This document shows, one piece after another, positions 3,377 to 54,116 of a stretch of 64,000 nt of DNA; the stretch's first letter is position 1; every line of letters starts with the position of its first letter. The position numbers and the translations under genes are program-made. Source of the stretch: Blasia pusilla (taxonomy: Eukaryota); the NCBI GenBank assembly GCA_050084515.1, contig CM114271.1, positions 18,724,001 through 18,788,000 of the forward strand, given 5' to 3'. Below the pieces are notes generated by a model. The model saw nothing but the letters and a program-made list of their open reading frames with translations, was not told the DNA's origin and searched no databases.

Positions 3377-4776
3377 CACCCGCTCAAGCACTCAGACTCA
3401 CCAAGAAGGGTCTCCCACACTCCTCACTAGCTCACCTACGCTAATAGTAATCCCGTGACGACACTCCCGGCCTCATGCACACTCAACACTCGAGCTCACC
3501 ATGAGCCTCCCAACTCCAAAAAGCTAAGACACAACACATACTCTTGGGTCATACACATGATTCCTACTCGGAAATTACCATATATCCACCAACATGCTAC
3601 ACATAAAAGGAGTCTACACTCGTCACCATCGCTACACCCATCTAACACTAGCAACTACCCGATACCCAGCACTCTCAATCACACAAGATAAGTGCAGGAA
3701 AAAGGACTCGAATGGATAACCTGATCAAGCTTGCCAACATGCTGCACCGTCAACACTCACTCCTCCATGTGGTACGGAAACCTCCGGAGCACAACCATCT
3801 CCTCGTACAACATGTCGACCATCCCATCAGCGGATGCGGACTATCCGTCGACATCAGCACCAGTAGCTCTACCACTAACACTCCATCAACTGTCGACACA
3901 GATCACAATCTTGCTCACCGCCACCAAAGTACTAGCAAGTCAAATTCCGTCGCAAACTATCGGTAGCTAGCAGCCCCGACAACACTCGAAATCCATGATC
4001 CAAAAGTACCATGAGGAAATCTCTCCTAATCCTTTGAGACACAACCATTCCCACCAACCACGTAACTCTTGTAGCATGCTAAGCTTGCCCAACCATGTCC
4101 ATGATGGCTTTACTATGTTCGTACCGACCCTACCACATTCTTATATCTTACTATGTCGGCCTTACTCAACTCCGTTCCTCCCTACCTTGGCCCAACGCCG
4201 TCCACCTTCCCCGCTCCTTCCTCCACACATGCTTACTCTTGTGGGCGCGGCTCCCTATGCCTGCCCTTCCTTCCAAGTTCCCACTGCCCTCTTTCCCAAA
4301 CCCCCGCCCGGCTTCTTCACTCGCTGCCTTCAGGTCCGCATCCTTATGAAGGGCCATCTCGAGCTCTCTTAGCTCCCACGACCTCCTTCCATGGTTCGGG
4401 GAGTTTTTTTAGAATTATCGGACCATTACTGGTGTCCCTCATGTTTTATCGGAAATTAATATTTGGTGCCGGTCGAGGATGGTAAGTTTTTTACTTTCTG
4501 ACTATTTTCCAAAAAAAAATATCTTCTCAGAAAAAATCCGATTTTTGTTTTCCTCTTTCTTCTTATTTCTGGGTTTTTCTCCCTCTTCCGGCCAATTTTC
4601 GGCATAACTTTGTGAAGCCGGCCAAAAACCGGCTACGCCTCCTAACTGTCTCAAAAAAAATTTCCCCGACTTCTTCCATCCTCCACAGAGTCCACACCTG
4701 AAGTATGATATCAAGTTCCTTTCCCTGAACTGAACTTGCAACTAAACAAACAACCTTCTAAAGTATTAAGAAAATC

Positions 4777-4830
4777 ATCCTTGGCAGGAGTTGAACCAGA
4801 CAAAACTCCCACCAGTTGGGAGCCAAGGAT
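4777..4830 (-). ncRNA. Putative tRNA-like structure (acceptor-like stem, D-like hairpin, T-loop; no anticodon arm) in hAT C1
   Basis: Minus strand reads ATCCTTGG-CTCCCA ACTGG TGGGAG-linker-GGTTCAACTCC-TG-CCAAGGAT. Conserved in C2, C3 and C4. Confidence 0.45.
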
Positions 4831-4916
4831 CCTACCCCTCTTGAATACTTGGAGCACTAAGGCTCCAAGTATTCAAGAAGGGTCCTACATCCTAAAACCC
4901 AAAATATGAATATCTT

Positions 4917-7021
4917 CTAATCTACATGTGTTTCAGTATCTTTAACTTCTTCATTCGGGGAAATATATCTATCTGGATTTGCAAACAAGTACCTAAAATG
5001 AGCAGAATTCTTCCACAACATCACAGACTCAGACAACATCTCTTCATAATCAAAGGAAGGTCCTTCTAAGGCAATGGCAGTATGGCAGTACTAACACACT
5101 GGACTCTAGCTACATTAGCCAAAATCAACAAATTAGAATACTTACATTGCAACGAGGGGCTCCAACTTACCATCGCCCACAAGTCTCTGAAGTTACGATC
5201 CTTCCACTCAGTAGTAGTCATCAATTTGAAAGACTGGAACTCTTGCTTCACAATGGGAGAATTAATGATAGGAGGTTGCATTGCACCCCCCAATGGCAAT
5301 TGAGCTCCAAAAAAACCACACAAATCATCTAAATCTTTACACCCCCAACTATTGATTCTCATTGATCCAATCAGGTTATTATCTCGAAATCGCTCCTGTA
5401 AAGCTGCACACACACTTTCAGAAAATCTTTTCTGAAAGAATATGGCAGCCTCCAAATCCCTTCCAGTACGATCTCGAGACATAGCAATGCTATGAAATTT
5501 TTTTCCCCTTATCTCAAAGTGTAAACGACAAAGATAACCACCAGGTGGCCCAAAATCATGAAGTATATGGTAACCAGTATCTTCAGAGAAGGTGGAGGCA
5601 TTCAAGTCATGAGTTTCCATGACAAAATTCATGGTAATCCTAGCTATCTCCGAATTGACAATGCTCCCTATAGTACTAACATCCACAAACTTGTACTGAA
5701 ATATCTTACTCAAATTTGCAAGCATGGAAAGAATGTCAACCAAAAAGTATAATTGATAGATCATTTGGAATGATCTCAACCTGGTAAATAAATTTGCAGC
5801 GTTCCCATCATCCTCTGAGGGGGAAATATCTCTAAAATATGTCAGTAATGATTCTAGAGAATCACACAATGTGGTGACAGCCTGCCAACGTGATAACCAT
5901 CTAATCTTGTGGTATCTCTTCATTACCCGCTATGAGTCGTTGAATTTTTCCTGCAAAGACGCTAGAATTGTCTTCCTCTTGGACGACCTTCTAAAGTAGC
6001 CAGCTATCGAATTGAGGATCGAATCAACTTCAGAGGATATTGACTTGCAATCAAGAGCTTTAGCAGCTGATAAAGCCGCCAAATTAGTTCTGTGGGCTAC
6101 AGAATGAACTGAAAGAATGTAAGGATTTATCTTCTGCTTCATTTGGGATGCCACCCTTGTCTGGCTACCTACCATTGTAGAAGCACCATCTGAACCAAAT
6201 GCCACCATTTTGGAGAATTCTAATCCTCCATCTTTGATAAGTTGCAACAAACTTTCAGTAATAGCATTAGCACATTTTGATTCGCAACAAAGTAGTCCTA
6301 AACAAAAACATTCTGATTGGCCCTCTTCAATGAAGGTGGCAAACACAACCAAATGCCTTGTTACAGAAATGTCAGTTGATTCATCGATCATAACTCCAAA
6401 GAAAGGAGAGGCTTGAACTCTCGCAAGAGTTCTTCTACACAGAACTTGGCTAATGAAACAACACATCTCACTACAGCTCTTTTCATCTTGGTGTAGGTCT
6501 CTGGTAATAGGGGCATTGACACAAAGCATCAACTTACAAAGGCTGGGAAATTTCAAAAACGGCATAGCCTCCTTCGCAAGGAAGTATGCGCACTTAAACA
6601 GTGTCATTAGAGCAACTTCGCGGGTTTGGTTGGTAGTGGCTATGGCCTTGGCACATCGACTTCTTACCCCCATGGGCAGCCCATGCAAGTTTGATGTGCT
6701 CATTGGACTTCGCATGATCAGTAAAGGCTGAAACCTTGCAATTTATGGCTCCGTCTTTGGCAAATACACTCTTCCCCTTCCCCTTCTTACAAACTTTACA
6801 AAATATTCTACCATTGACCGAATCAAACTCAATCCAATCATACATTTAGTACCAAACATCCTTCCAAGCTACTCTAACTTTCTCGTAAAAACTCGCATCG
6901 CTTTCTCGATGGAGGTGCTCTCTGTGTCATCAGATGAGCCAGACAATGCGATAATGTCATGCTCATCGGATATTCGTTCCTTACCTAGGAAGGAAGTCAT
7001 GGTCTTCGGTCTTTTTGCCAT
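4917..7021 (-). pseudogene. hAT transposase (ZNF862/DUF4371-like), disrupted
   Basis: N-terminal zinc finger FCKVC...H. Motifs DESTDISV, GSDGASTM, H(C/S)VAHRTNL and RWLSR. Contains stops, frameshifts and a C-terminal deletion relative to C2. Confidence 0.85.
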
Positions 7022-7068
7022 GTGAACAAGTGGGTGTAGGCTACAACTTCAAGGCACGGGAGAAGGGT

Positions 7069-7150
7069 TAATCCTTGGCCCTAATCGACACAAACCCTCG
7101 CCCGAATCGACACAAACCCTGGCCCTAATCAACTCAAACCCTAACCCTAA
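7069..7150 (+). repeat. ~23-bp tandem repeats with telomere-like CCCTAA motifs in the hAT C1 leader
   Basis: AAACCCT(G/C)GCCC(T/G)AATCGACAC-type units, about 3 copies, ending AAACCCTAACCCTAA. Confidence 0.55.
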
Positions 7151-7427
7151 TGTGGAAGGCCGTAGAACGAACCCAACTCGTGGGTCAAATTAGGGAGGAA
7201 TCGGCCAATATAGTTAGAAATTGCAGAGATAAAATGTAAAGCAATAGGGCTGCGGCAAGAGTCACGAAATGGCCATTGTCACAAGTTTGCATGAGCCACA
7301 TTGAGACGCCAAAAACCCTGCACAAGTGAAACGCAAAAGAGCAGCAACGTGGCCCTAAAACAAATGAATCACCTAGCCAAGCAGAAACGCAAAAGAGCAG
7401 TTCGGAGAGCCTAATCTTTTGTCAAAG

Positions 7428-7903
7428 ATCGGAGCGGAGCCAAGCGGAGCAGTGCGGAGCGGATCCAAGCAGAGCAAAGCGAAGCTGCGGAGCGGATCCG
7501 AGCACAGCAAACTTAGCAAAGCGGAGCGGATTCAATGGCGCAAATTCATCTGGAGGGAAGGAGCGGATCCGAGTTAAGCATAGCGGAGCGGATCCAAGCA
7601 GAGCAAACTTATCAAAGCGGAGCGGAGCAAAGCGGAGGCTGCGGAGTAAAGCGGAGGCTGCGGAGCAGATCCAAGCAGAGCAAAGCGGAGCATAGAGGTA
7701 CCGCATTCATTCCAAGCAGAGCAAACTTAGCAAAGCGGAAAAGATCTAAGCAGAGCAAAGCAAAGCGGAGCGGAGCAAAGCGGAGGCTGCAGAGCAGAGC
7801 AAAGCGGAGGCTGCGGAGAGGAGCAAAGCCGAGCTGTGGAGAGAGCAAAGCGGAGCTGCGGAGGCTGCGGAGGCTGCGGAGGCTACGGAGCGGGGCAGAG
7901 CAG
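7428..7903 (+). repeat. Degenerate pentamer-based minisatellite (GCGGA/GCAGA/GCAAA) in the subterminal region of hAT C1
   Basis: Runs of AGCGG, AGCAG and AGCAA, with higher-order units such as GCGGATCCAAGCAGAGCAAA and GCGGAGGCT. Confidence 0.8.
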
Positions 7904-8516
7904 AATGAGGGGATTCAGGGGCCGTAGTCGGGTCTCCACCCCCTACGAGCCCCTTGGCAGATGAGCGACCCTAATTGCAGCCGTTCGATTTAGATCGGAC
8001 GGCTGAAATTAGTGTGCCCTAAATGGGTGTTAGGGCACACATTTGAGGGGATGGTCTGGATCTAGCCGCCTACCCCTAAGCAAATCGTGGCCACTACATA
8101 GTTTTCGGCAGCCGGCACCCCAAACGGCAATAAACAGTCCGCCGGAAAAAGTTATCCAGCCAAAAACCGGCTTTCCTACCCGGACGTCGCCACATTCCGG
8201 CATGTTCCAACATTCAGACAGTCACATTCCGGCACTTGCACGAGTGCCCTATCAACTTCCGGCATCTACTCATTACCGCTCGGAACTCGTGCCGGTGGTG
8301 ATCTTCTGGCGTCAGATTTTCGTGAAAACTGCCGGTCGGGGTTACTCGTAACCGGATCTCTCCGAACATTGCCTCCTTCCTCCGTATACTTGGGCACGGT
8401 GCCCTATGCACCTCCCGCATTCCTAGAGCTCCAAGCTCCTTCCTTCCTCAGACCGTCTCTCCCGGCCCACCTGGCTCCTTTCACGTAGCTCTCTAACGCA
8501 TGGCCCGCATCCCTAT

Positions 8517-10995
8517 CAGGGTTCGGTAAGTTTTTTCTATTTGTCGGCCCAATACCGGGAAATGTCAAATTTCCCGGTTTTTCTTTTTTATACCAGCGGC
8601 GACCGAAAACTTTTGCAGTTACTGGTTTTTTCCCAAACCTTTTTTCCCGGGCTGTTTAAATCTGACAGAAACTTTTTTCCTTTCGGTCTATTTCTGATAC
8701 TTTTTTTTTCCAACCACATTTCTGCCAACTTTATTTGGCCTAGCCACATTTCCGGTTCCATTGTTTCTCTGTCAGCAACTTCAATTGCTTTTTTTCTGTC
8801 ACTCACTTGAAGTTTCCTTCAAGTTTCCCTGGTACTCAACTTCCCAACCCTTTTCTCTGTCAGTAACTTCAAGTTTCCTTGGTACCCAACTTCCCAACCC
8901 TTTTCCCTCAGTTTCATTTTAGGTAACTACTACTTCCAACTTCCTAGCTCCTACATCAGCATCCTTGGTAGGAGTTGAACCTGGCAAGCCTCCCATCCAT
9001 TGGGAGCCAAAGATCTTAAATTCCTTGTTCCATACAAAGGATTTTATCCTCATCCTTGGCAGGAGTTGAACCTGATTACTCTCCCACCAGTTGGGAGCCA
9101 AGGATCCTACCCCTCTAGAATACTAGGAGCCTCATTGCTCCAAGCATTCTAGAAGGGTCCTACTCCTACTTCCTAAAACACAAAGGCTAAGATGTATCAG
9201 TAGCTTCCTCTTCCACAACTGGGGAGACATATCTATCTGGATTTGCAAACAAGTACCTAAAATGAGCATAATTCTTCCACAAGACCATAGACTCAGACAA
9301 TATATCCTCATAATGAGAGGACGGTCCTTCCAAGGCAATCCTCAAAACTGCATCCAAGTACTTGGTGGACAACCTGTTACGAGATTTAGTCTTGATCATA
9401 TTCTGAATGGAAAATGCTCTCTCACATATGGCAATACTAACACATTGGACCCTAGCTACATTTGCCTAAATCAACAAATTAGAAAATTTACATTGTAGAG
9501 AGGGACTCCAACTCACCATAGCCCACAAGTCTCTGAAGTTGCGATCCTTCCACTCAATGGTAGCCATCAATTTGAAAGACTGAAACTCTTGCTTTATAAG
9601 TGGAGAATTAATGATTGCAGGTTGCAATTGATCTTGCAATGGCAACTGGGCTCCGAAAAAACCACACAAATCATCTAAATCTTTACATCCCCAACTACTC
9701 AATCCCACTTGCCGTGATGGCATGTGCAAAGGATTAAGGATTTTCATTGCACCAACGAGGTTGTTGTCTCAAAATTGATCATGTAAAGTTGCACACACAC
9801 TTTCAGCAAACCTTTTCTGAAAGAACAAGGCAGCCTCTAAGTCACTTCTTGTCCGATCCCGAGACATACATATGCTATGAAATTTGTTTCCCCTGATCTC
9901 AGACTATAAACGACGAAGATAACCACCAAGTGGCCCAAAGTCAAGAAGTATATGGTAACCTGTTTCTTCAGAGAAGGTTGAAGCATTCAAGTCATGAGTT
10001 TCCATCACAAAATTCATGGTTATCCTAGCTATCTCAGAATTGACAATGCTCCCAATTGTGCTAACATCTACAAACTGGTACTGAAATATCTTACTCAAAC
10101 TAGCAAGCATGGAAAGAATGTCAGCCAAAAAATACAATTGATAGATCATTTGGAATGATCTCAACTTGTTAAACAAGTTGACAACATTCCCATCATCCTC
10201 TGAAGAAGATATATCTCTGAAGTACGTCATTACCGATTCTAAAGAATCACACAATGTGGTCACAGCTTGCCAACGGGATAACTACCGAATCTTGTGGTAT
10301 CTCTTCATGACTCGCTAGGAGTCATTCAATTTTTCCTGCAAAGATAACAAGATTGTTTTTCTCTTGGAGGACCTTCTAAAGTAGCTAGCTACAGCATTGA
10401 GAATCCAGTCAACTTCAGAGGAGATTGACTTACAATGAGGAGCTTTGGCAGTTGATAAAGCGGCCAGATTTGTTCTATGGGCTACACAATGAATTGAAAA
10501 AATGTAGGGATTTACCTTCTGCCTCAATTGAGAGGCTACACATGTCTAGCAACCTACCATTGTTGAGGCACCGTCAGAACCAAATGCAACCATTTTGGAG
10601 AATTCCAATCCTCCATCTTTCAATAGTTGCAGCAAAGTTTCGGTAATAGCATTAGAACATTTTGATTCACAACGAATTAAACCTAGAAAACAGGATTCTA
10701 CCTAGCCCTCTTCAATGAAAGTAGCGAACACGACCAGATGCCCTGTTACGGATATGTCAGTCGACTCATCGATCATAATTCCAAAGAAAGGAGAGGCTTG
10801 AACTCTAGCAAGACTTCTACTAAGTAGGACTTGGCTAATGAAATAAGACATTTCACTACAACTCTTCTCTTTGGTAATGGGAGCATTAACAGAAACTAAC
10901 AACTTACAAAGAGTGGAGAATTTGATAAATGGAATAGCCTCCTTCGCAAGGAAGTATGCACATTTAAACAATGTCATCAGAGCGGCTTTGCAGGT
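8517..10995 (-). mobile_element. hAT DNA transposon C2, 5'-truncated, disrupted transposase
   Basis: TIR CAGGGTTCGGTAAG at 8517. Transposase fragments at 9187-10977 are homologous to C1 (CERAFS, HCVAHRTNL, DESTDISV). Homology to C1 stops at ~10995, where family A sequence begins. Confidence 0.85.
8961..9105 (-). ncRNA. Two tandem tRNA-like modules (8961-9014, 9052-9105) in hAT C2
   Basis: 9052-9105 minus strand: ATCCTTGG/CCAAGGAT stem, CTCCCA-ACTGG-TGGGAG hairpin, CAGG-TTCAACT-CCTG T-arm. Confidence 0.5.
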
Positions 10996-11607
10996 GTTGC
11001 GAGTCTGACTAGCACGTCATCGACCCGCGGCGGAGTAGCTATTGCGTTAGAATTGTGTGGTGGGTTCTGTGGATTCAGGGGGCGCCACGTTTGGTGGATT
11101 GTGTTACCTTGATTTCCATTTGCGATTGGAGGGTTGTCGTTGGACTTCCTATGTTTGGATCCCCTCCATCGTTGCTTCTTGCTTGCGCGCCCATTGTTAG
11201 GGTTGACGCTGATTTCCACAGTGGTGTTACTCCTGTGTGCTACCGGTAGTGAGGCTGGAGTGATGACGAGTAGACCGTGGGAGGCTTCTTGTGGTGATGA
11301 CAGGTTAGGTTGCCTACATCCATAGCTAGTAGAGCTAGAATAGTACAGCAACATCGACGTCACTTGGTTACTTAGTGGTGGTAATTTGGTGGTGGTGCGG
11401 CATCGGCGTTGGTCATCACAGAGCTATCTGGTGGTCTGTTTGGGGACCGTGGTGCGGACAGTGGTGCTTTCACACGGAGTGGATTGAGGTATCGGCTACC
11501 TTTTCCATGAAGAGGAGGACGAGGGTGTTCCAAACACCGAGTCTTCTACGTTGTTATCGAGTGTTGCAGCTCCATTGATTTGGGACATGGACGGGATATA
11601 TGGGGCC

Positions 11608-32427: not shown

Positions 32428-35400
32428 CTCTTGCTACCAAGCTTCCACTCTTGCTATTCCACCAGACATCAGATCTGGTCATAGAGACTCACTTTTGTTT
32501 GATGTTTGGCTTCATAGGGATGCCTTCTCGTTTTGCTCATGTCCCCAGATCCATTACTTTGGTTTCATACCTAGTGTTATTGATTTTTTGCAAGTTGACT
32601 ACTAGATCCGAAATCGTGTTTGCCACACTATGTGCAGCCCCAACTCTCTCGCTAGTTGCTTTGCATAAGCCTTTGTGAGAAGTTGGTTCCATAGACTAGG
32701 GTTTATGTTTTAAATTTTTTTGATTTAGGCCTCATTTAGACATAATTTGATTCGCATTCGGGTCTAGTTCATTGGGGTCACATATGGCCCAGAGACAAAA
32801 GACGATGAGTGCTTTCTTAGATAAGGAACGTCGAAACAATGGGCCATTTATTAGGCATATTCTGGTTCATTTGACGATAAAGATGAACAACCTGCATCAA
32901 GAAGTAGTGCGTCCTTATATGAAAAATTTTGCGTAGCCTAGAAGGATATATGGTACTCAATATACGACTGGATTGGTTATGATTCAATCCTTGGTATAAT
33001 TTTTTGTAAAGTCTATAGCAAGGGAAAGGGGAAGAGTTCTTTTGCCAAAGATGGAGCAATTAATTGCAAAGTCTCTGCATTCACTAACCACGCCAAGTCT
33101 AATAAGCATATCAAGCTCTCATGGGTTACGAATGGAGGTAAGAAGTCGATGGCCAAGTCCATTCCAATTACAAACAAAACTTATCAAGTAGCCATTCTAA
33201 CATTGTTTAAGTGCGGATACTTCCTCACAAAGGGGGCTATGCCATTTCTGAAATTTCCCAATCTGTGTAAGTTGTTGCTTTTTATAAACGTATCTATTAC
33301 GAGAGACCTTTATCTCGATGAAAAGAGTTGTAGTGAAATATCTTACTTCATTTGCCAAATTTTGTTGAGAAGAAATCTTGCAAGAGTTCATGCCTCTCCC
33401 TTCTTCGGAATTATGATTGATGAGTCCACACACATGTCTGTTACAAGTCATTTAGTTGTGTTCGCCACTTTCATTGAAGAGGGTTAGGCAGAATGTCTCT
33501 TTTAGGATTACTTCATTGTAAATCAAAATGTTCTAATGTTTTTACTGAAACTTTGTTGCAACTCATCAAGGATGGAGGGTTGGATTTTTCTAAGATGGTA
33601 GCATTTGACTCACATGGTGCCTCAAAACTTGCCAAATAGGGATAGCCTCACAACTGAGGCAAAAGGTAAATCCCTATATTCTATCTATTCATTGTGTTGC
33701 TCATAAGACAAATCTCGCAACTTTGTCTTTATTGCAAAAGCTACTGATTGCAAGGCAATCTTGAGTGAAATAGATTCAATTCTGAATGCTATAGGAGGTC
33801 CTCCAAGAGGAAAAACCTTCTAGCATCGTTGTTGGAAAAGTTCAATGACTCCCAAAGTGTCATGGAGAGATACCATAAAATACGATCGTTATCTTGTTCG
33901 CAAGTTGTTTCCACATTTTGTGATTCTCTAGAATCTGTGTTGAGTTATTTTAGGGACATTTCCCCTTCGTAGGAGGATGGGAATACTACTAATTTATTTC
34001 ACATGTTAAGATCATTCCAAATGATCTATCAGTTATATTTTCTAGCTAGCTGATATTCTTTCCATGCTTGTGAATTTGAGAAAGATTTTCAAGTACAAGT
34101 TTGAGGATGTTAGCATTATCTTGAAATGAAAAAATGCTCTCGAGATACCTTCTATTACTATAAATTTTGTGATGGACACCTTTGACTTGAATGCATTGAC
34201 ATTTAATTTTATGAAGATATAGGTTACCACATTTTACCTAATTTTGTGCCTCTAGGTGGCTATCTTTCACGTTTACTATTTGAGATAAGGGATTAAAAGT
34301 TCCATAGTATAGAGATGTCCCAAGATTTCACATGAAGGGATTTAGAGGCTGCCTTACTCTTTAAGAAATGGTTGCTGAAAGTGTTTGTTCAACTACAGAG
34401 GATGGATTTTGAGATAACTACCTCATTGGTGCAATGAAAATTATGAACCCCTTGCACATGGTGACCCGACAAGTGGGATTGAATAGTTGGGTCTGTAAAG
34501 ACTTAGATGATCTGTGAGGATATTTTAGAGCATAATTTATGATTCAGGGTCAGTTGCAACCTGCTTTAATTAATTCTCCTATTGTTAAGCAATAGTTTCA
34601 ATCTTTCAAATTTATGGCTATCACGCAGGGGGAGGATAGCAATTTTAGAGACCTATGGGCTATGGTAAGCTAGAGTCCCTCTCTGCAATGTAAGTTTTCA
34701 AACTTGATAATTTTAGAAAATTTTATTAGAGTCCAATGTGTAAGTATTACCATATATGAGAGAGCATTCTCCATTTAGAATATGATCAAGAGAAAATCTC
34801 ATAGTAGATTTTTTACAAAATAAGTAGGTGTTGTTTTGAGGATTGCCTTAGAAGGACTTCCTTTGAGTATGAGGATATGTTGTCTGAGTTTGTGTTTCAT
34901 TTAAGACATATATTTGCTAATCTCGATAGATTTTTGTCTCCACAAATAGAAGGAGGTAACACTGAAATATTTAGAAATTAGGATACTTGTATATTTTGAT
35001 TTGTTGGTGTAATAGGGCCCATTTAGATTACTTGGAGCTTTGGGGCCCCCAGTATTTTAGAGGGGGGAGGATCCTCAACTCCCAAGTGGTTGGAGAATTA
35101 TTAGGTTCAACTCGTGCCAAGGATATCAAAGCCTCAGGAATGGAAATGTATAGAACGTCATATGATATTAAACTTAATTGACTATAGGTTTTAGAAGTTG
35201 TTCGAGCAAAGTGAACTTTTTTACACATTGGAGACAAGTTTCAATTGAAGAGTGAGTGAATGGGAGACTAGTTTCTGTTAAAAAGTTAGTGCATGGGAAA
35301 GAGAGCACGAAATAATCCTATGAATTTTTAAAGGGATGGATTTTGGCCAAACTCTCAAGAAAACTCAAAAACTCCATGCTAAGAAAAAAAAGAAGAAATC

Positions 35401-37261: not shown

Positions 37262-38848
37262 ATGAAGATACGAAGTATTAAGAATTTGGCAAATGCACAT
37301 CAAGACTCGATATGGGCGGCGACATGGGCACCGGCCACAGCAGAGAGGGGGGCCTTGTTGATTACCGGGTCGGTGGATGAAAATGTTAAGATATGGAAGG
37401 GAGATGATCTGGAGCTCGAACGGGTGAACACGGGGCACGCATTGGGAGTACTGGCTGTGGCTGCTCATCCGCTGGGTTCCATCGCGGCGTCAACATCCCT
37501 GGATAGCTTTGTTCGAGTTTTCGACGTCGACACAAATGCGACCATCACGACTCTGGAAACATCTCCCTCGGAAGCATGGCTCATGCAGTTTGATCCCAAA
37601 GTGAGTTAATTCGTGCGGTTGGTTCTCAGGCCTTTATCCTCCACGAGAAACATATCTCGCGTGCGTTCCGCGCAGTTTAGGGTTTATTGGCTCTCCTGTT
37701 GGGAGACGCTTTGTTTGAACGCCAACTTCTGACCGTTTGTTCCCCTTCTACGCTTCGTCAGGATTCCTCTGCGTCCCTGCCTCGCAAAACTCAGAGTCCC
37801 TTTCTTGTTTTCGTAACATATTGTAGGTAATGTTGGCTTTGAACGTTGGACATGAACATTTGAACTCCTGGGTCTGTCCTCCTGTAGAGTTTTCGCTTGG
37901 TGTGTTTCACAACGGCGGCCTCCCATGAATTACAGCGATGTCCTCCGTAAAAATGCTAACTGCCTACTCCTAGCAATTACCGTGTGCTTTCTAAGAGAAG
38001 TAATCATCGAATCACATTCCTTTGGTGTTTTTATTTTGAATTGACCTCTGGCACAGAATGAACTGTGTCTAGTTGGTTCTATGCTGGTTGGTGGTCAGAT
38101 TGTTGATCTGAAGTCGCTATTCTTTCTAAAATGTGTATTCTTTTTAGTGCGAACGTTCTGTCGAACTCTTATTAGGTCGGCAAGTTCATGACGAATGTCT
38201 GGACTGCAGGGTGAGATTCTGGCTGTAGCCGGTGGTGGTAGTGGGTCGGTGAAATTATGGAATACAAGCACCTGGCGGATGATCGATACTGTATTGGCAG
38301 TTCCGAAAGCGGAAACGAGTGACACAAGGCCGGCAGAGAAGCACAATGGCTCCGGAAAATTTGTCCTAGCTGTGGCTTGGAGTAACGACGGTAGGAGGCT
38401 GGCATGCAGCACAATGAACGGAACTATTGCCATATTTGATCCTGCGAGGGGTAAATTTCTCCAGACATTAGAAGGACATTCGATGCCGGTACGGTCTATG
38501 GCGTTCTCTCCTGTGGATTCAAGAGTACTATTCACGGTGTCTGATGATAAACACATTCACATGTATGACGTCGACAGCAGAAGTCTGATTAGTGCCTTCT
38601 CTGGCCATGCTAGCTGGGTTTTGAGTGTAGATGTGAGCCCTGATGGGACGTGCCTAGCTACTGGATCTAGTGATCGGACAGTCAGATTATGGGACCTTAA
38701 CATGAGGGCTGCAGTGCAAACCATGAGTGACCACGCTGACCAAGTCTGGTCAGTGGCATTTCGACCACCTGGTGGAGATGGGGTGCGTGTTGGAAGGCTG
38801 GCAAGTGTGTCGGATGACAGAAGCATTTCTCTATATGAATACACCTGA
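37262..38848 (+). CDS. VIP3: WD40-repeat protein VIP3/SKI8 (PAF1 and SKI complex subunit); exons 37262-37600 and 38210-38848, 325 aa
   Basis: Strong recognisable similarity to plant VIP3 (NAHxDSxWAATW...FVRVFDVDTNATI...SWVLSVDxSPDG...GRLASVSDD). GT-AG intron 37601-38209 joins the exons in phase 0. Confidence 0.93.
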
Positions 38849-41438: not shown

Positions 41439-44400
41439 ATGTCATCAGAGATGGAGTTGGATGCTCAATCTACTCGCTTATTTGGTTTTACACGCCCTCC
41501 TACAGCCGTAACCTCTCCCCCTGGTTCACCTCCTCATCGTAGATCTCGCCATTTTCCTCCAGATGCTAATACACCCATTAAACTCCCTACATTTCTTCCG
41601 GATTCTCCTCTTCTCCCTTCTTCGCCTTGTCCTCTTGAGCCTAATCTTGATCCATTATTACCGAATCCTTCTACTTTGCCATCCCCACATATCTCATCTA
41701 TGCCCTTGCTTCCAACTCCCATCTATTCTACCCGAATCTCCCCTCTTCCTCCTCCTCCTCCTTCCCCAACCTACTTACCCCCTCATCGTCAGCCATCACC
41801 ACCTCTTGCACCTCCTACCTCCTCTCCTTGTAACCCTTCTACTTCTCCATTTGTACCAAAGGTTCGTTGCATACCTTGTGGTAAGGAGTTTGCTCCTAAT
41901 GGGATCAAAAGATATCAGAGGTACTGTCGATCCATGCATGGGTCTTCAATCCCTAATCCCATACCACCTCTTTCTGCACTCCCCACAACAACTGCTTGGA
42001 CCTGGTTAAGCCAAATTGATCTCCTTCGCTCTTTCCATCGAGGTCTTCCTCGTCCTAGACTCTACACTTGCATTCCTATTGCTCTTCGCCCCATCATCCA
42101 ACAAGCTTTGCTTTTCCCTTTAGAAAGGTTAGCGCGTGACCCCACGGATATAAATTCTTGATATCTCCTATTACTCTTCCCACAATGGGTTTTAGTCCTC
42201 CCTCCAAGGGGTGGTGCAACGGGTCATCGTGAAACCTCCACACGTATTCAACGCTTTAGGTCTGGGGATTGGAAGAATCTTCAAAATTAGCATGTACTTC
42301 GAGCAGAGGCCTTAGCTGCGGCTCATCCCACTCAACATGCCAATCATGGGAGGCCTTCAATACAACAACGCCTTCGATGAAGTCTACTTTTGGGGCACGT
42401 TGGTGAGTTTTCACGTGCAGCTCGAGCATTGGGTCCTCTTTCTCCGGTGGTTCCAAGTGCGGAAACAGTGGCTCTCTTAGAAGCTCTTCATCCTCCTTCA
42501 AGTGGCGATGCTCCATCTTTTGTGGAAGACTATACAACGGACCTTGACTTGGAGCTTGACTTGGAGGTTTTCACAAGGGCTTTTCTGCATACTCCTCGCT
42601 TATCAACAAGCGGGCTGTCAGGGATGGTTTTTTAGCATCTCCGCGATTGCTTTATCCCAAAAGATTGAGCAAGTGGCTTTGTCTCTCTATATAAGGTGTG
42701 TCCACATATGGCGGCAGGTCGTCTCCCATTCTCTATCTCTTGGCTCCTAGGGGCTTGTCGCTCGTTGGCTATGGATAAGTCTCCTTCAGGTGTGTGCCCT
42801 TTGGCTATTGGAGAGGTTTTATACCGCTTGGTTAGTCGATCCCTATACTTGCAATTTCATCCTCACTTTAGTGCCCACTTATTTCCTCATCAATTTGGAG
42901 TGGCAACTCTTGGAGTTTGTGAGGATGTGGTGCATGGGATTTGCTCCACTCTTGATATTCATCCAGATTGGGTAGCAATTCAAGTCGATGTGGCTAACGC
43001 ATTCAATTCAGTTTCTCGTGCGGCCATCTTTGAGGAGTTACGTCGTGCAGGAGGACAACTTGCGAGCCTCATTCCATTTGTTTGCTCCTTTTATGCCTAT
43101 GATACGCCCATTATCTATTTCCATCATGCTACTTCTAGGGAATATAGTATTCTACAATCGGCTTGTGGCACACGTCAAGGTGATCCCATGGGGGGCCCAC
43201 TCTTTGCCATTGCCCATTTTTGTGCCCTTCGAGCATCAGCGTAAGCATTTCCATCTTGTCTTTTCCCTTTTATTGTTGATGACACTCACATTATAGGTCC
43301 TCCTTTTGAAGTGGTTCTTGCTTATACTCATTTCGTGGAGCAATTATCTTTCTTAAACCTTAAAGTCCAACCTAGTAAATGTGGAGTATGGTCTCCTTCA
43401 TGCCTTCCCTCAACATTCACCCCACCTACTCCTGATTTTCCCATCTACATTGAAGGGGTTAGAGTTCTTGGGGTCCCAATTGGCTTCATCGATTATGTCT
43501 CAAAGTTCTTGGATGAGGCCCTTTTGAAAGACGTGGAATGGCTTCATTTGTTACCTCATCTCGGGGATCCCCAAGTAGCTTATGGGATTCTCTCCCAATT
43601 TTTCTACAACGTCCTTCCTAACTTCTTCGCACTTGTTCTCCCACTTCAAGGTTCTTACATCGGTTGGCCTCTTTTGATGCTTCTATCTTGGCAACTTTTG
43701 GTCAACTTCTTGGCCCAAATACCTTTGAGGGAGAGGATGGTGTCTTTGCTTCACAACAAGCTATCTTGCCTATTTCTTTTGGAGGGGTGGGACTGTCCTC
43801 TATAGTTGCATCTGCTCTCGTCGCCTTTTTGGGGAGTTGGGCGTTGGTAGCACCGATTATGGCTTCAAGGTTTCTCCAAGGAGATACACCTATCTTGATG
43901 GATCATATCGCCCATGTAGAGGAGGGGGACTTGTTATTTCAACAACAACTGAGATCTGCACGAGCTCTTTTTCCTCTTGCTACACAAGCAATTCTACCCC
44001 CTTTGAGTCAACTGATTATGGAAGGGCTTGATCGACTTCAAGAGCATATCTCCGAGAATCTACATCAAATCAACTTTTCTAGCATTCTCTCCGAGGCATC
44101 CTCTGACGCTAATCGAGCTCATCTACATTCATGTGCGGGTACCGGAGCGGGGGCGTGGCTTACTGAAAATCCTCTTATTCTTCCATTTCATCTTCCTCGA
44201 AGTATATTCTCGACATCTTTGTGCTTACGTCTTGCACTTCCCCATCCTTCTCTCTTAGGTGTGCCGAATTGTGTATGCGGGGATCCCATTGATGCCAAGG
44301 GTATCCATATTCTCTGATGTGCACATGGTGGAGAACGAACGGCCACACATGATGTCATTAGAGAGGCGATAGCATGGGTGGCTCGTATTGCAGGATACAC

Positions 44401-47824: not shown

Positions 47825-48709
47825 TATATGGAAAATTCCTTCCATAGCACAGATGTACGTCCATGAGTATGGACATATCTACAGATGCAAACTTTATTCA
47901 TATATAATCTTGGGTTGAATAGAATTTTAGAAATAGGTACCTCTTCTTTGCTGCCCACTATATCTTATGCCATGCAAAATAGAAATCACAAAATAGAAAT
48001 CAATCTTATATTCATCAAATTCTATCTACTTATATGATGCTCATATTATGCAATGTACAAATGTGAACTAATAAATATTTTATTCAATAATCTATGATTT
48101 TAAAATTACTCTTTTTATTTTTTGTCTCCTTTCATTGCATATACTACCAAAATTTTTGAAATTTTTTTTTCATGATAACAATTTCTTGATTTGCAAACAT
48201 CTCATCCATCTATTGATTAAACAAAATTAAAAACTTTTTCTTCTATTGATTGTTTGCCATGTGCAGTCTTCTAGTCACCATAATATACGTATTCTTACTA
48301 GATGCAATCCCCATGGATAACTTAGCATGGCATAACCGTAAGTGGAACCACAATTCCTTACTTAACCCCTCATCAAGTACGGACTCTTCTTAACCTCTCC
48401 ATTACTCTCTACTCTAGAGCTCGGACAGTATTTTTTAGTAGATGAGTTTTTTATCGGGACTACTGGAAACATTTAGGTTTTCTGAAATAATTCTCAGCCC
48501 ACCCCTAAGACTTTTTACCTTATCAAGTTTTTGCCCAAGATTTTTTTCCTTCTCAGGTTATTTCCTGCATGAAACTTGAGCCACCAGTTTTTTGATGGGC
48601 TTGGAATTGGCATGCCAATTTTTTCCTGTCACATTTTCTACCTTTCAGTTTAGTTCTGGTTATAAGCAAAGTCCCCAGTAGCCTTCTCAACTTACCTCCT
48701 CATTTTTTT

Positions 48710-48861
48710 ACCTCTAGCTGGAGTTGAACCAGAATTCCCCCTACCAGTTGGGGGCCAAAGGTGCTAAGAAACCTTCCTAGCCTTCTCACCTCACCTCCTC
48801 ATTTTTTTACCTCAGACTGGAGTTGAACGAGAATTCCCCCTACTAGTTGGAGGCCAGAGGT
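48710..48861 (-). ncRNA. Two tandem tRNA-like modules (48710-48762, 48809-48861) in hAT C4
   Basis: Minus strand ACCTTTGG-CCCCCA ACTGG TAGGGG-GAATT-CTGG TTCAACT CCAG-CTAGAGGT; stem changes are compensatory relative to C2. Confidence 0.45.
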
Positions 48862-48981
48862 GCTAAGAACTCTTCCTACAAGGAGTATTCATAAAATGAA
48901 CTTTCTTTGTAGGAGGGTTTGACTGCAGAAAATAAATAACTACTAGAAGCATTTTCAAAATGAAATGAAGTTATAGAGAAA

Positions 48982-51900
48982 CTAGGATGAAGGGTCAGGG
49001 TTAAGCTCACCTTCCTCAGCAGCTTCATGTACAATGGGAGGAACAATGTACAACTCTGGATTAGCATATACAAATCTATATTCCTTTGAGTGTTTCCATG
49101 TGTCCATAGCAGAAATGAGGACCTTATCCACATCAAAATTCTCATTTGGATCCTCCATATTAACCCTCAGCAAAGCTTCCAAGTGATAAGAGGTTAAGCT
49201 ATTTCTTAACCTATTCTTAATGACATTCTGAATGCTAAAAGCTCTCTCACATGATGTTATTGATACACATTGGACTCTAGCTATATCACCTAAAATACAG
49301 AGATTAGCATACTTAGTCTTCAGGCTCGGACTACCACTTACCATATACGATAAGTCCTTGAAGACCTTCTCCTTCCAATCTGTCATGGCCTAAATCTTGA
49401 AGGCCAAGAATTCTTGAGGGCTGCACCATCTAGAAGAGGCTTTTTCACCCTGCCATGCAAGGTTTTTTCCTGTCCATAGAAAGAGCTCAACATTTCAAAG
49501 TCTCTCACACCCCAATCTCTTAAACTAAATATGGTAGAAGCCATTTCGGATGGATTGAGGATCTTAAAACCTCCAATGATGTTATTGTCTTCAAACCTTT
49601 CTTGCAAAGCTACACATATGGCCTCAACAAAATTCCTTTGGAAAAAAACATCTTCTTCTAAATCCTTTCCTATCACATCCCTATCCATTTGGATTGAATG
49701 AAAGAAAGAACCCCTTATCTTTGATTGCAAGCGCTGCAGATATCTATCACTAGGACCATAGTTCGAAAGGAGATGAAAACCGCTAGACTGAGAAATGAGA
49801 TAGGCATTCATATCTACACTTTCATGTACATAATTCATTCTAATATGTGCTATCTCAGTCTGAACAATAGAAGCAACGCTAGATATATCAACAAACTTCA
49901 TCTGGAATAACTTGCTCAACATTGCCATAGAATGAAGTATGTCAGCCAGAAAGTATAAAATATAAATCATTTTGAAGGACTTTAACCTCTTTAGAAGATT
50001 TGAAGCTACCCCATCATCTTCCTTGGGATTCACAGTAGAGAAGTAGACCATGACCGATTCTAAACTATCACATAAAGAAGAAACGGCTTGCCACCTGCTA
50101 AGCCATCTGACCTTTAGATAACGTTTCATGACTTTCCTACAATCATTTAGCTCTTCTTGTAGAGAAGAGAGACCAGAATTCCTCTTAGAACTCTTCTTGA
50201 AATAAAATGCAACAGAATTCAAAATGTTATCCACCTCATCACTAAGTTCCTTGCACCCTAGGCTCTTTGCTGCAACAAGAGCAGCTAAGTTTGTCTGGTG
50301 TGCCATACAGTGGACGCTTGTCATGTAAGAATTAACATTCCTCTTCAAATGGGAACCTACCCCATTCCTAGTACCTACCATAGTGTTGGCCCCATCAGAC
50401 CCAAAACCAACCATCTTCTCAAAATCCAATTCCCATTCCCTAAGTGAGGATACTAAACAATCTGAAATGGACTCGAGATCCTTGTTCTCAACCTTGATCA
50501 ATCCTAAGAAGGAGGTGCAAACTTGACCTTCATCAAGGTAAGTGACGAAGGCAACGAGGTGTCATGTTACTGATATTTCCGTGGATTCATCTACCATTAT
50601 TCCGTAAAAGGGACTAAGTCTAACCCTAGCTAGAAGCAATCTTTGAATTACCAAACTAATACATGTTATGTCTTGTCATCCTGATACATCGATTTTTTGA
50701 GCATTATAGATCCAGATTTGAGTAATGTACAGAGACCAGGGAATGAGGAAAATGCAACATTATACTTAGCCATGAAGTATGATCCTCGAAAAAGATTAAG
50801 CACCACTAAATCACAGTTTTTATTGGTGCTTGCAATAGATTTCTATGGAGTTTTTCTACCACTATATTGAGCCCAAGCCAATTTTTTTATGTTCCTTGGT
50901 GTCGCGACCCTCATGACCAAATAAGTGTCAAGCGGAACATCAGAACATTAGCGGGCTCACGCTAAGATGGTTTGCGCGTTGGAGTTGTTTCAAAGAGGAG
51001 ACAAGAGACGAGACGCGAGCGAGGAGTCGCGTTTCAGGTGTTATGGGCGCGACTGAGAAACCTGGACCAAACGCGGAATGAGACTTGAAAGAAGTCGAGT
51101 CTAGGAAGTGGGTTGCCAAAGGAAAGATCCGGATTTGGAACGCCACTAGCGTTTGAGAGTTTCCGACTGTATTTATGGCCATAACTTTTAGTGCCAAGAT
51201 GCGTTTGGAGCAAATAAGGATGCGTTGGAAAGCTTATGGAGAGCCGGTCCAAACGCATTAAAGATCCCTGCAAACGCATAAGTAGCGGCCGAGATACAAC
51301 CCAAAAAAGATTGTAAGTGGAGTCGGGTTGAGGGCCACAATGAAGGGCCCGACCCTCTTTTCCCAAAGGGAAGGGGTTATTGGAGAACCCCAGAAGTACT
51401 AGTAAGGGGGAAGGTCTCCGAGAGTGATTGGAACCCAAACTCCACTTTGGGCGCCGCGGGGCGGCTCAAGGGCATGGAACGGAACGCGAGTTTGGGGGTT
51501 GGGTTGGAAAACCTGCACCAAGTCTAGTGAGGCGATTTTAGACATCCCTCTTGGATTCCACCCCGCGACTCAATTACTTGGGTCTCGGTTCGGAACTCAC
51601 CCGAAGACCGTTGAACAATTGGGATCGCTAGGCGCGCAAGTGCCGTTTCAGATCCTTGGACTAACCAGAAAGTCTGTTCCAAGTCTTGAAGGACTTGCCA
51701 TGTGTTGGAAGCTAGGAACTAAGGAAGGTTGAGCTTGATGAGACGCCGAGTTGAAGACTCGGTGGGTTGGAACGCCGGTTGGCCAAACCCGACTAACAAG
51801 AGTGCGTGTTTGGGTCCAGATCGGCGATGAATTCGTGACCTACTGAACGCACGCTTCCGCAACACTAAAGATTGACGTTCAAGGAGAGTAGGGGCACGAC

Positions 51901-52240
51901 ACTTGGATTTACCATGGTCTGTGAAGGCAGGAATCTTCACATTGATGGCTTCGGATGTGGCAAATACAAATTTCCCTCCTGAGTCCTTGCACACTTTACA
52001 AAATACCCTCCCTGTGTGAGGCTCAAATTGAATCCATTCAAAAGCTTGATACCAAGAGTCTTTCCAAAGCATGTTGTTCTCTTAAATCTTTGAAGCGGCA
52101 AGATCTGAAGGAGAATCTTCTCCTCACATGAGTTGGTTTCTACTACTGGTTCACTAACAATCCTCTTCATAAACCCCAAATCAGTAAGGGATTTTTGTCT
52201 CTTATCCCTAGATGCATTGTTGGCTGAAATATCCTCCATA
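48982..52240 (-). pseudogene. hAT transposase of C4, disrupted
   Basis: FCKVC, DESTEISV, GSDGANTM, HCMAHQTNL, RWLSR and CERAFS. Split by the solo LTR at 50900-51901. Confidence 0.85.
50900..51901 (+). mobile_element. Solo LTR related to family B, inserted in the C4 transposase
   Basis: TGTCGCGACC...GGGCACGACA; perfect 5-bp TSD CTTGG. Confidence 0.9.
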
Positions 52241-54116
52241 AGGAACTCTGAGAGTTCAGGTTTGTATTCTTTAATATACACGCTACTCTGAAACCCTTTG
52301 TAAAGGGTTTAGGCTCGGACGGTTTCAAGGGTTTACAGAAACAATGAAAGACTCACAAAACTTCAAACAAAGAGCGATAAAGACGAGCTACAAGAGTGCA
52401 AATGAGACTCAAGTCCCCGACCCCAACTCCCTCGGGCCCTTACTCCCTGACTCCTGAGAGAAAAAAAGGAAAATAAGCAAGCGGCGAGTAGGAGGAGAAT
52501 GCAGTGTGCGTGGGCTTCTCCCAAAATGCAATGGCACAAGAACGAGGTGCGAGATCCAGCACATGAGGATTGAGGACCGAGACCCTACTCCCAAACTCTC
52601 TCCCGAGTCCCTAACTCCTACAGCAGCGATGAGGCTTGGATGAGCGTCTGAAACTCTGAGTGAGTCACACTCGCCTGTCCAACTCGCGGAACTGGATGAG
52701 GTGTGTCGAGCAGCCGATTTCTTCCGTGGAATCCTTCTCAACTTTTTGTCACGTGCGATGGCTGGCAAGCAATGCAACTGAGCAGCATGGAGCAGCTTGA
52801 ATTAGCGACTGACCAGCAAGGAGCAATAGAGCATTGAGCGAACACAATAAGAACTAAGCAATCACGCCAGTGAGCACTGAGAGCAACAAGGAGTAAACAC
52901 AATGACGAGCAAGCAACGAGGTGCCGAGGACGAGCGAGCAACGAGGCGCCAAGTACGGTGAGGACTCGAGGAGTAAGCACTAAGCAGTAAGCAAACCGAG
53001 CAACGAGCAACGAGGCGCCCAAGACGGCGAGGAGCAACACGGCGAGCAACGAGAACTCAAGACTCAGGAGTAAGCAAGAGTCTCCGACGCGGCAACGCGC
53101 ATTCAAGAAGGAACGAGGAGAAAATGAAAATCGAGTTGCAAATGTCTCCACCGAGTCAACCCCTACTCCCCTCGGCCATGCCTCCCTCTCTCCCAAAATG
53201 TGAAGTTGTGAATTGCTAGAGATCATCCGCACCTTAGAAGGGACGGTTGGATGAACCTTACACCCTCGCCCCCTTATCCACTACCCTCTTGATACCTGTC
53301 GGGGCCCAACACCTCCTCCCCCCTATCCGAAAATGCCTAAACCCTTCCACAAGTCCCGGTTACACTACCGGGAAATTCCAACCGGTTTCCTCACAACGGC
53401 CGGCATTTGTGACTTGAAGAAGCTCACTTCCGGGGATTCCTCATTCCTCTTCGGTTTCATCCCCGGGCCTGAGTTGCGTCCATCGGAAAATCTCAATTTC
53501 TGCCGGCGGCCTTTACAAAGGATGCCGGTTCTGTCCAAGCCTTGCTCTACTCTCTCTCTCTCCAGGTTTGAGGTTCCGAATTTAATGACCTTATGCGGAT
53601 AGGGTTGATTGGTCCCCCAAAAAGGATAGAGAATGAATGCATACGAGTTGCAGCAAAAAATGGGACGGATTCATGGCATCCAAATGAAGTGACCGTGGGA
53701 TCCACAGCTATCGGACGGGCAGAGGCGGTGGAAATACGATATTTGGCCGTCAAATCAAAATCTCGTTCCATTCGTTTGTTGAAGGACGAGCGGTGGGAGT
53801 AAGTACATACATATAAACATACATACTACATACATGTCCGCTTTCACATTTAACTCCGAGTCGACACGAAGTAAACGCCTGATAAGACTTCGCTAGGGGA
53901 TGAGGTGTAATGACTACGTGTATGCAACAAAAAATGAATCTGCTTAGATATCTATGGTAGTAATAATAATAGTAATCGGTGTACACACCGGTCTGCGAAA
54001 TGCGCGCGAAAGAGATGTGCGGGCAGAGCGACTGCGAGACTGAGGAAGGAATGAATAAATGAATGGATGGACGGACGGACGGACGGACCTCTGCAGATCG
54101 GCGGCGGCGCCTCATG

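What the first reader, a model, noticed from the sequence alone, without database searches (positions are those of the whole stretch)
4777..9105. Conserved tRNA-like module without an anticodon arm downstream of the transposase in all four hAT elements
Seen: a ~54-nt unit on the transposase sense strand at 4777-4830, 8961-9014, 9052-9105, 35071-35124, 48710-48762 and 48809-48861. It has an 8-bp closing stem, a 6-bp hairpin with an ACTGG-type loop, and a 4-bp arm with loop TTCAACT (GGTTCAACTCC matches the tRNA T-loop/B-box). Pairing is kept while sequence changes: T-arm CAGG/CCTG vs CTGG/CCAG, hairpin CTCCCA/TGGGAG vs CCCCCA/TAGGGG, closing stem ATCCTTGG vs ACCTTTGG. It is tandemly duplicated in C2 and C4. 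Known: tRNA mimics such as mascRNA direct RNase P/Z cleavage, and B-boxes bind TFIIIC; I know of no such module in hAT elements. Inference: it could be a 3'-processing signal, a small RNA, or a TFIIIC-bound anti-silencing insulator.
Basis: partly seen in the sequence, partly recalled or inferred. Interest (0 to 1): 0.75.

Follow-up and report, generated by a model that had tools for sequence, protein, structure and literature searches.

The report
tRNA mimic behind hAT transposase genes
A lineage of cut-and-paste (hAT) transposons keeps a small tRNA-shaped RNA fold just after its transposase gene, conserved in shape across very distant relatives, probably so that the host's tRNA-trimming enzymes cut the end of the transposase message.

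Summary
The six units are real, and each lies on the sense strand behind a C17orf113-type hAT transposase; two are decayed. In this plant genome 37 of 40 transposase copies picked by protein alone carry the unit; 0 of 30 copies of an unrelated Ac-type hAT family do. Between 11 families it is 82% identical while its flanks sit at shuffled baseline. Metagenome relatives carry it too, including a clade of transposases only about 25-45% identical, where 10 of 21 pairs show compensatory change. A model built only from those distant copies recovers four window copies. The fold is an 8-bp acceptor stem plus a 4-bp T-stem (12 bp, as in tRNA), a GG D-loop and a canonical T-loop; the anticodon arm is absent or short. 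The A-box and a Pol III terminator are missing, so it is not a SINE head. Best reading: a mascRNA/t-element-like RNase P (PRORP)/RNase Z signal that sets the 3' end of transposase mRNA. Cleavage is not shown, and a few RNA reads appear to cross the predicted site. I found no description in the searchable literature.

The parts
4390..8371 (-). hAT element C1, complete, 3982 bp; imperfect terminal inverted repeats at 4390-4399 and 8362-8371; 8-bp target duplication CCTCCTTC on both sides
4917..7033 (-). C1 transposase gene, broken; 79-86% identical to the intact 751-codon copy in L093; stop at 4917-4919
4834..4883 (-). 22-bp hairpin ending 3 nt before the tRNA-like unit
4777..4830 (-). tRNA-like unit of C1: acceptor 8/8, D-stem 5/5 with 7-nt GG loop, 6-nt linker, T-stem 3/4, 7-nt T-loop
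8517..8526 (-). right terminal inverted repeat of element C2
8961..9014 (-). second (downstream) tRNA-like unit of C2, diverged in D-loop and linker; acceptor 8/8, T-stem 3/4
9052..9105 (-). first tRNA-like unit of C2, fully paired
9109..9158 (-). long hairpin of C2, 3 nt before the first unit
9187..11004 (-). C2 transposase remnant (residues 140-748); homology to intact C2-type copies stops at 10995; left end not found
32781..34981 (+). C3 transposase remnant, many breaks; element ends not fixed
35018..35065 (+). decayed hairpin of C3
35071..35124 (+). decayed tRNA-like unit of C3 (acceptor 5/8, T-stem 3/4)
48415..53544 (-). hAT element C4, a different family (about 51-53% protein identity to C1-type); inverted repeats at 48415-48428 and 53531-53544; 8-bp target duplication CTCTACTC; interrupted near 50900-51900 by an LTR-like repeat
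48710..48762 (-). second tRNA-like unit of C4, fully paired, with compensatory changes against C2 in acceptor and T-stem
48809..48861 (-). first tRNA-like unit of C4, partly decayed (acceptor 7/8, T-stem 3/4)
48868..48919 (-). long imperfect hairpin of C4, of different sequence from that of C1, ending 6 nt before the unit
48982..52066 (-). C4 transposase remnant; stop at 48982-48984

Best explanation
The unit is an RNA-level tRNA mimic in the 3' UTR of the transposase mRNA of a C17orf113-type hAT lineage. It keeps what tRNA-end-processing enzymes read: a 12-bp acceptor/T stack (8+4 instead of 7+5), a GG-bearing D-loop, a canonical 7-nt T-loop and an unpaired -1/+73 junction. It drops or shortens the anticodon arm. 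Most likely the nuclear protein-only RNase P (PRORP) cuts at the 5' edge of the acceptor stem and RNase Z behind it. The transposase mRNA would then end 3-6 nt after a long hairpin, which could protect a non-polyadenylated end, and transcription running on into the element end and flanking DNA would be cut away. Shown: location, strand, conservation, covariation, sense transcription of the transposase family. Inferred: folding in vivo, the enzyme, the cut, and the benefit to the element.
For: Island of conservation: mean identity over 55 family pairs is 0.82 for the unit, 0.64 for the hairpin and 0.46-0.51 for the flanks, against 0.48 shuffled. Near set, 13 representatives: 96.4% of cells paired, 7 of 17 pairs changed on both sides, 0/500 shuffles reach the covariation score, slid controls 37-58% paired. 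Distant set, 6 units: 86.2% paired, 10 of 21 pairs compensatory, 6 of 8 in the acceptor; RNAalifold finds the cloverleaf unaided. Model R2, built only from distant units, returns L142, L133 and four window copies as its only non-training hits below E 0.2 in 263 kb (E 2e-6 to 4e-3, rough E-values). Positions -1 and +73 could pair in only 16 of 142 genome copies, and the T-loop varies only at its last two positions in the parsed set (the parse fixed the first five). Unit present in 37 of 40 copies picked by protein. Diverged tandem second copies keep the fold. A hairpin ends 0-6 nt upstream in 11 of 11 near families, with compensatory changes. PRORP needs the acceptor stem and D/T loops but not the anticodon arm or G+1, and footprints G18, G19 and C56 (PMC3858429; PMC4975455; passages). 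Transposase-family RNA reads are strongly strand-biased, consistent with sense transcription, in 3 of 3 runs.
Against: No RNA end was seen at the stem edges. Binned depth suggests about one read per run reaches into the D-arm and so crosses the predicted cut (inferred from depths of 0.01-0.02; most reads were under 90% alike). No known substrate with 8+4 geometry was tested here. In the distant set the T-stem is only 71% paired, with its outer pair unpaired in 4 of 6, and the D-stem 79%. G-U outnumbers A-C only 36 to 21 in genome copies, weak support for the strand. The distant clade has no comparable long hairpin, and 4 of its 12 scorable loci show no unit. The shuffle control ignores relatedness, and R-scape was not available. 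How a non-polyadenylated mRNA would be translated is unexplained.
Confidence: 0.5

Rival explanations
1. The fold is a tRNA mimic that is bound but not cut. It stays in a polyadenylated mRNA and recruits an elbow-binding host factor (export, translation or protection from decay), as viral tRNA-like structures do (recalled).
For: The same covariation; reads that seem to cross the predicted cut; the non-canonical 8+4 geometry and imperfect T-stem.
Against: The fixed 12-bp length and the avoided -1/+73 pairing are what end-measuring nucleases read. A hairpin placed 0-6 nt upstream in 11 of 11 near families fits a new 3' end.
Confidence: 0.22
2. The cut happens but serves self-restraint: removing the 3' end destroys most transposase mRNA and keeps the element at low activity, or the released ~55-nt RNA is the functional product.
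For: Tandem duplication of the unit without the hairpin in several families would raise cutting efficiency; one copy lacks the hairpin (L057); the distant clade has no long hairpin.
Against: The hairpin is conserved in structure in the near clade, which fits a protected end; no small-RNA data.
Confidence: 0.12
3. It acts as DNA: a B-box for TFIIIC (insulator, anti-silencing) or a Pol III promoter inside the element.
For: The T-loop with flanks matches the B-box consensus (recalled) in most copies. Earlier scan notes report tRNA-like boxes in other hAT families (unchecked).
Against: A-box consensus (recalled) in 1 of 142 copies; D-loop GG to B-box spacing about half that of tRNA genes (parse; tRNA spacing recalled); no conserved T4 terminator; a DNA box does not need six compensatory acceptor pairs.
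Confidence: 0.11
4. A tRNA-derived SINE head or tRNA fragment captured once and carried along without function.
For: tRNA likeness; absent from 4 of 12 scorable distant loci, and apparently deleted in L152 and halved in L137 and L164 (read by eye).
Against: The flanks are at shuffled baseline while the unit is 0.82; it is kept on both sides of a transposase split of more than 2 changes per site; no free-standing SINE-like copy in 50 sampled loci.
Confidence: 0.05

Closest known systems
mascRNA / menRNA at the 3' ends of MALAT1 and NEAT1
   Same: A tRNA-like fold inside a Pol II transcript, behind a structure that could protect the new 3' end. The D-stem is stacked directly on the acceptor with no linker, the D-loop is small with two Gs, the T-loop is canonical and the anticodon-equivalent arm is compact (PMC11693755, first half of text). 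The distant hAT units of 57-61 nt are closest in layout.
   Different: 7+5 bp there, 8+4 here; a triple helix upstream there, a Watson-Crick hairpin here; no Rfam match; a lncRNA in vertebrates versus a protein-coding transposon mRNA in plants; cleavage proven there, not here.
Plant mitochondrial t-elements cut by PRORP1 and RNase Z
   Same: tRNA-like signals that define mRNA ends and may lack arms; PRORP needs the acceptor stem and D/T loops, not the anticodon arm (PMC3858429, passages).
   Different: Organellar, in host genes; here nuclear and inside a mobile element.
ENE / dENE triple-helix elements behind plant transposase genes (rice hAT TWIFB1)
   Same: A structured RNA element just behind an intronless hAT transposase gene, thought to stabilise its RNA (review PMC13541005, passages; the primary paper was not held).
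   Different: An ENE is a U-rich internal loop that grips poly(A); here there is a fully paired hairpin and a tRNA-like fold, with no U-rich internal loop (by inspection).
tRNA-derived SINE heads
   Same: B-box and tRNA ancestry or likeness.
   Different: No A-box, no tail, no free copies found, and a fixed position inside hAT elements.
hAT superfamily, C17orf113/DUF4371-type transposases
   Same: Terminal inverted repeats, 8-bp target duplication, zf-C17orf113, DUF4371 and hAT dimerisation domains; weak profile match to Hermes (E 0.003).
   Different: No tRNA-like 3' cassette is described for them in the papers searched; an Ac-type family of the same genome lacks it.

Membership tests
hAT DNA transposon (host element) | short terminal inverted repeats and 8-bp target-site duplication | tested here: met
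   C1 and C4 in the window; 8 of 20 fetched genomic copies gave a repeat pair plus 8-bp duplication at the expected ends
hAT DNA transposon (host element) | hAT-type transposase | tested here: met
   intact 751-codon frame; homologues carry PF14291, PF25431, PF05699; Hermes match E 0.003
tRNA gene | four-arm cloverleaf with 7-nt anticodon loop, found by tRNA finders | tested here: not met
   ARAGORN 0 in the window and 0 in 12 loci; no Rfam tRNA hit
tRNA-derived SINE | A-box as well as B-box | tested here: not met
   A-box consensus (recalled) in 1 of 142 copies; B-box-like T-loop present
tRNA-derived SINE | free-standing copies outside other elements | tested here: not met
   48 of 50 sampled loci have transposase upstream; the other 2 match hAT ends; a sample, not the whole genome
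mascRNA/menRNA | match to the family model | tested here: not met
   no such hit up to E 5-10 in Rfam scans; that Rfam holds this family is recalled
mascRNA/menRNA | D-stem stacked on the acceptor without linker; D-loop GG; canonical T-loop | tested here: met
   against PMC11693755; secondary structure only
mascRNA/menRNA | upstream U-rich/A-rich triple helix | tested here: not met
   upstream is a paired hairpin, or nothing stable in the distant clade (by inspection)
mascRNA/menRNA and t-elements | cleavage by RNase P and RNase Z | tested here: inconclusive
PRORP substrate | acceptor/T stack, D-loop G18 G19, T-loop C56, unpaired -1/+73 | tested here: met
   against PMC3858429 and PMC4975455; the tertiary D/T contact itself is not testable here
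ENE/dENE | U-rich internal loop | tested here: not met
   folds show none
TFIIIC-bound site | TFIIIC occupancy | not testable with these tools
   needs ChIP

The most novel reading that the evidence does not exclude
An old, broad lineage of eukaryotic DNA transposons matures its transposase mRNA by the tRNA-processing route. A mascRNA-like mimic is cut by RNase P and leaves a hairpin-capped, poly(A)-independent but translated mRNA that escapes host deadenylation and read-through silencing. Animal C17orf113-like proteins fall between the two unit-bearing clades in the tree (long branch, unsure), so the cassette may also sit behind animal elements and could be a transposon source for the MALAT1/NEAT1-type mimics.
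Probability: 0.15. Interest if true: 0.92.

Novelty: new variant of a known kind. Interest (0 to 1): 0.74.

Why it matters
If the cut is real, this would be a nuclear protein-coding mRNA whose 3' end is set by the tRNA machinery. PMC12941219 (passages) names MALAT1 and NEAT1 as the only lncRNAs matured that way. It would give nuclear PRORP a non-tRNA substrate class, add an RNA-level strategy of DNA transposons beside the ENE, and supply a natural series of mimics (no arm, 2-bp arm, 5-7-bp arm; 8+4 stack) for testing what RNase P measures. Even without the mechanism, it is a new conserved RNA family, absent from Rfam, that marks one hAT lineage.

Tried and rejected
Rfam at permissive E-values and ARAGORN found nothing at the unit. 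Viral contigs gave no relative in two scans, and annotated phages none. The distant-clade C-terminus and the distant form of the unit were not found in this genome with those queries. The run search listed no RNA holder. The one lay of reads was too thin at the unit to map ends. A B-box-like word in 2 of 30 Ac-type loci proved to be a variant of a ~180-nt subterminal repeat, not a unit; those 30 loci are one family, so the negative control is one family. A U-rich YAG just before the cassette looked like a 3' splice site, but the U-rich context is missing in several further families and no such joint was seen, so I do not rely on it. A joint MAFFT alignment of near and distant units was out of register by one column in the acceptor, so the two sets were counted apart. 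In the near alignment 4 of 13 rows are shifted in the D-stem, which lowers pairing there and may add spurious both-side changes. A genome-wide covariance-model search and R-scape could not be run. Literature searches for a tRNA-like unit in hAT or other DNA transposons listed no paper whose title or abstract start describes one. One search covered hAT subgroups; one search was uninformative. The library lacks most subscription papers, and no supplements were read.
Full report
Setting. The window is G000:C1:18724001-18788000 of a 390-Mb genome in 26 contigs. It is a plant: a G-type lectin receptor kinase frame lies at 54120-56834. The closest named homologues of the transposase are from the liverwort Riccia sorocarpa (51%) and the fern Adiantum (37%). 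That the host is a liverwort-like plant is my inference.

Observation. All six units are at the stated places and on the transposase sense strand. Four transposase remnants lie in the window and each has the unit. C1 (4390-8371) and C4 (48415-53544) are complete hAT elements with terminal inverted repeats and 8-bp target duplications. Pairing is good in four copies and decayed at 35071 (acceptor 5/8) and 48809 (7/8); the T-stem is complete in 2 of 6. Alone, the copies fold only modestly better than shuffles (z -2.6 to +0.7). The D-arm is a 5-bp stem with a 7-8-nt loop rather than 6 bp with 5 nt. ARAGORN and Rfam see nothing at the unit.

In this genome. A D-loop-to-T-loop pattern has 95 hits against 0 for the control; a T-arm pattern has 146 against 5. 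The first 30 of the 95, three of them the window's own, all have transposase upstream on the same strand. Of 20 further hits that I chose from the 146 because they were not in the first list, 18 have transposase. L121 is a hAT right end with its repeat, and L115 is half a unit with 105 nt of a hAT tail. In the reverse test I took 40 transposase copies found by protein alone: the 20 best of 150 scored from 626 candidates, and 20 more chosen for long frames; some coincide with loci found before. Model R1 finds a unit in 18 of 20 and 19 of 20. One copy is rearranged, and two are cut by the same insertion before the unit. Thirty copies of an Ac-type hAT family gave no hit below E 0.6 with either model; they are a single family. 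Several families carry the unit two or three times in tandem, with diverged second copies that keep the fold.

Outside this genome. A metagenome scan gave 47 loci (hosts unknown). Among the near relatives, L133 and L142 (53% and 51% identity) carry the unit about 65-70 nt after the stop, with a compensatory D-stem and an upstream hairpin (E 8e-14 and 2e-11). L137 shows by eye only the start of a unit; the others end too soon after or before the stop. A second clade, about 25-45% identical over short stretches and separated by more than 2 changes per site with full support (5 rows dropped for short matches), also has it. Of its 12 distinct loci with a recognisable C-terminus and at least 480 nt behind it, 6 have a full unit 250-440 nt after the estimated stop. 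One has a 5' half and one an apparent deletion across it (both read by eye), and 4 have none. Element ends could not be fixed for these loci.

Structure and constraint. The common plan is an 8-bp acceptor stem, a D-arm stacked directly on it with a GG in the loop, a 4-bp T-stem and a 7-nt T-loop. The middle varies from a 4-7-nt linker, through a possible 2-bp hairpin, to a 5-7-bp hairpin. Acceptor plus T-stem make 12 bp, the length of the tRNA stack (7+5, PMC11693755 for mascRNA; general knowledge for tRNA). Positions -1 and +73 could pair in only 16 of 142 parsed genome copies, which are related and not independent. Over 55 pairs of 11 families the unit is 0.82 identical, the hairpin 0.64 and the flanks 0.46-0.51, against 0.48 for shuffles. 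On sequence-only alignments, 13 near representatives give 96.4% paired cells and 7 of 17 pairs changed on both sides. Six distant units give 86.2% and 10 of 21, six of them in the acceptor. No shuffle of 500 reached either covariation score; slid controls gave 37-58% and 36-53% paired. These shuffles ignore relatedness, and I chose representatives and structures by eye, so they are not P values. Two less circular checks agree. RNAalifold finds the cloverleaf on the distant set unaided. A model built only from that set picks L142, L133 and four window copies as its only non-training hits below E 0.2 in 263 kb. Weak points: in the distant set the T-stem is 71% and the D-stem 79% paired, and G-U exceeds A-C only 36 to 21.

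RNA data. Three raw-read runs with the same species label, read in part (6-12 in 100), gave 347-505 reads each on an intact element, mostly under 90% alike and so from other subfamilies or another strain. They are strongly biased to one strand, which under the usual library convention is the transposase sense strand. Depth at the cassette is 0.2-1.1 and ends where subfamilies differ, at the linker. About one read per run seems to reach the D-arm and thus to cross the predicted RNase P site. That counts somewhat against complete cutting, but would be expected from uncut precursors. No end cluster was seen. The data neither show nor exclude processing.

Mechanism. PRORP needs the acceptor stem and the D- and T-loops, contacts G18, G19 and C56, and does without the anticodon arm and G+1; pairing of -1 with +73 shifts its cut (PMC3858429 and PMC4975455, passages). 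The unit keeps these features and lets the rest drift. I therefore favour (0.5) a cut at the acceptor edge that leaves the transposase mRNA ending just behind the hairpin, with RNase Z releasing the unit, as for mascRNA and t-elements. Enzyme, cut and benefit are inferred. Rivals are an uncut protein-binding mimic (0.22), a cut that restrains the element or yields a working small RNA (0.12), a TFIIIC or Pol III site in DNA (0.11) and a neutral SINE relic (0.05). Against Pol III: A-box consensus (recalled) in 1 of 142 copies and no conserved terminator.

Known and new. It works like mascRNA/menRNA in layout (PMC11693755, first of two parts read) but is not a member: no Rfam match, 8+4 instead of 7+5, a hairpin instead of a triple helix. 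The nearest precedent in hAT elements is the ENE behind the rice TWIFB1 transposase (review PMC13541005, passages; primary paper not held), a different structure. Searches listed no paper describing a tRNA-like unit behind a DNA-transposon transposase; I saw listings and abstract starts only, and most subscription papers are outside the library. Earlier scan notes mention tRNA-like cassettes or boxes in two other hAT families and a mini-tRNA in a phage transposon; I did not check them, and sequence look-ups found no look-alike.

Verdict. A real, selected, apparently undescribed RNA structure that marks one hAT lineage: a new variant of tRNA-mimic end signals. Its function is open but directly testable. 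Interest 0.74.

Noticed in passing
window 7400-7900: A GCGGAG/GCAGAG-rich tandem array in the 5' region of element C1, upstream of the transposase; possibly transposase-binding or promoter repeats.
   Followed up: no
L178-L207 (G000), from about 850 nt behind the dimerisation domain: An abundant Ac-type hAT family with a long subterminal array of ~180-nt repeats; PF05699 gave 647 candidates in all.
   Followed up: partly
just upstream of the cassette, e.g. window 4884-4900 (-), L155:4600-4621, L163:4730-4752: A U-rich stretch ending in YAG, like a 3' splice site, precedes the cassette in many families but not in all.
   Followed up: partly
L208, L222, L227, L232, L127, L123, L142 (linker of the unit): The linker could form a 2-bp GC hairpin with a 3-nt loop, a vestige of or step toward the anticodon-like arm of the distant clade.
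   Followed up: partly
L057 near 1540-1560 and L041 near 1520-1570: L057 has lost the hairpin between two short direct repeats that flank it. L041 has an inverted duplication in place of the 5' acceptor strand.
   Followed up: no
L152 versus L147: Two members of one distant family (77% identical C-termini) differ by a block of about 170 nt that holds the unit; L164 shares part of the block's leader and a half unit (by eye).
   Followed up: partly
P0026 in the tree: An animal C17orf113-like protein (Ptychodera) falls between the two unit-bearing clades, on a long branch; its DNA could not be fetched.
   Followed up: no
L163:840-910, L177:1800-1870, L168 near 1160 (-): T-loop-like words upstream of distant transposases that look like decayed SINE heads, and one that looks like an ordinary tRNA gene (by eye).
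   Followed up: no
window 54120-56834 (-) and 38192-38845 (+): A 905-codon frame for a G-type lectin S-domain receptor kinase, and a WD40-repeat frame.
   Followed up: no
window about 11000-32400 and 42669-44314: Nested Ty3-type LTR retrotransposon pieces with long inverted matches, and a reverse-transcriptase remnant. An insertion with the same start as one of these repeats interrupts hAT copies L226 and L247.
   Followed up: no
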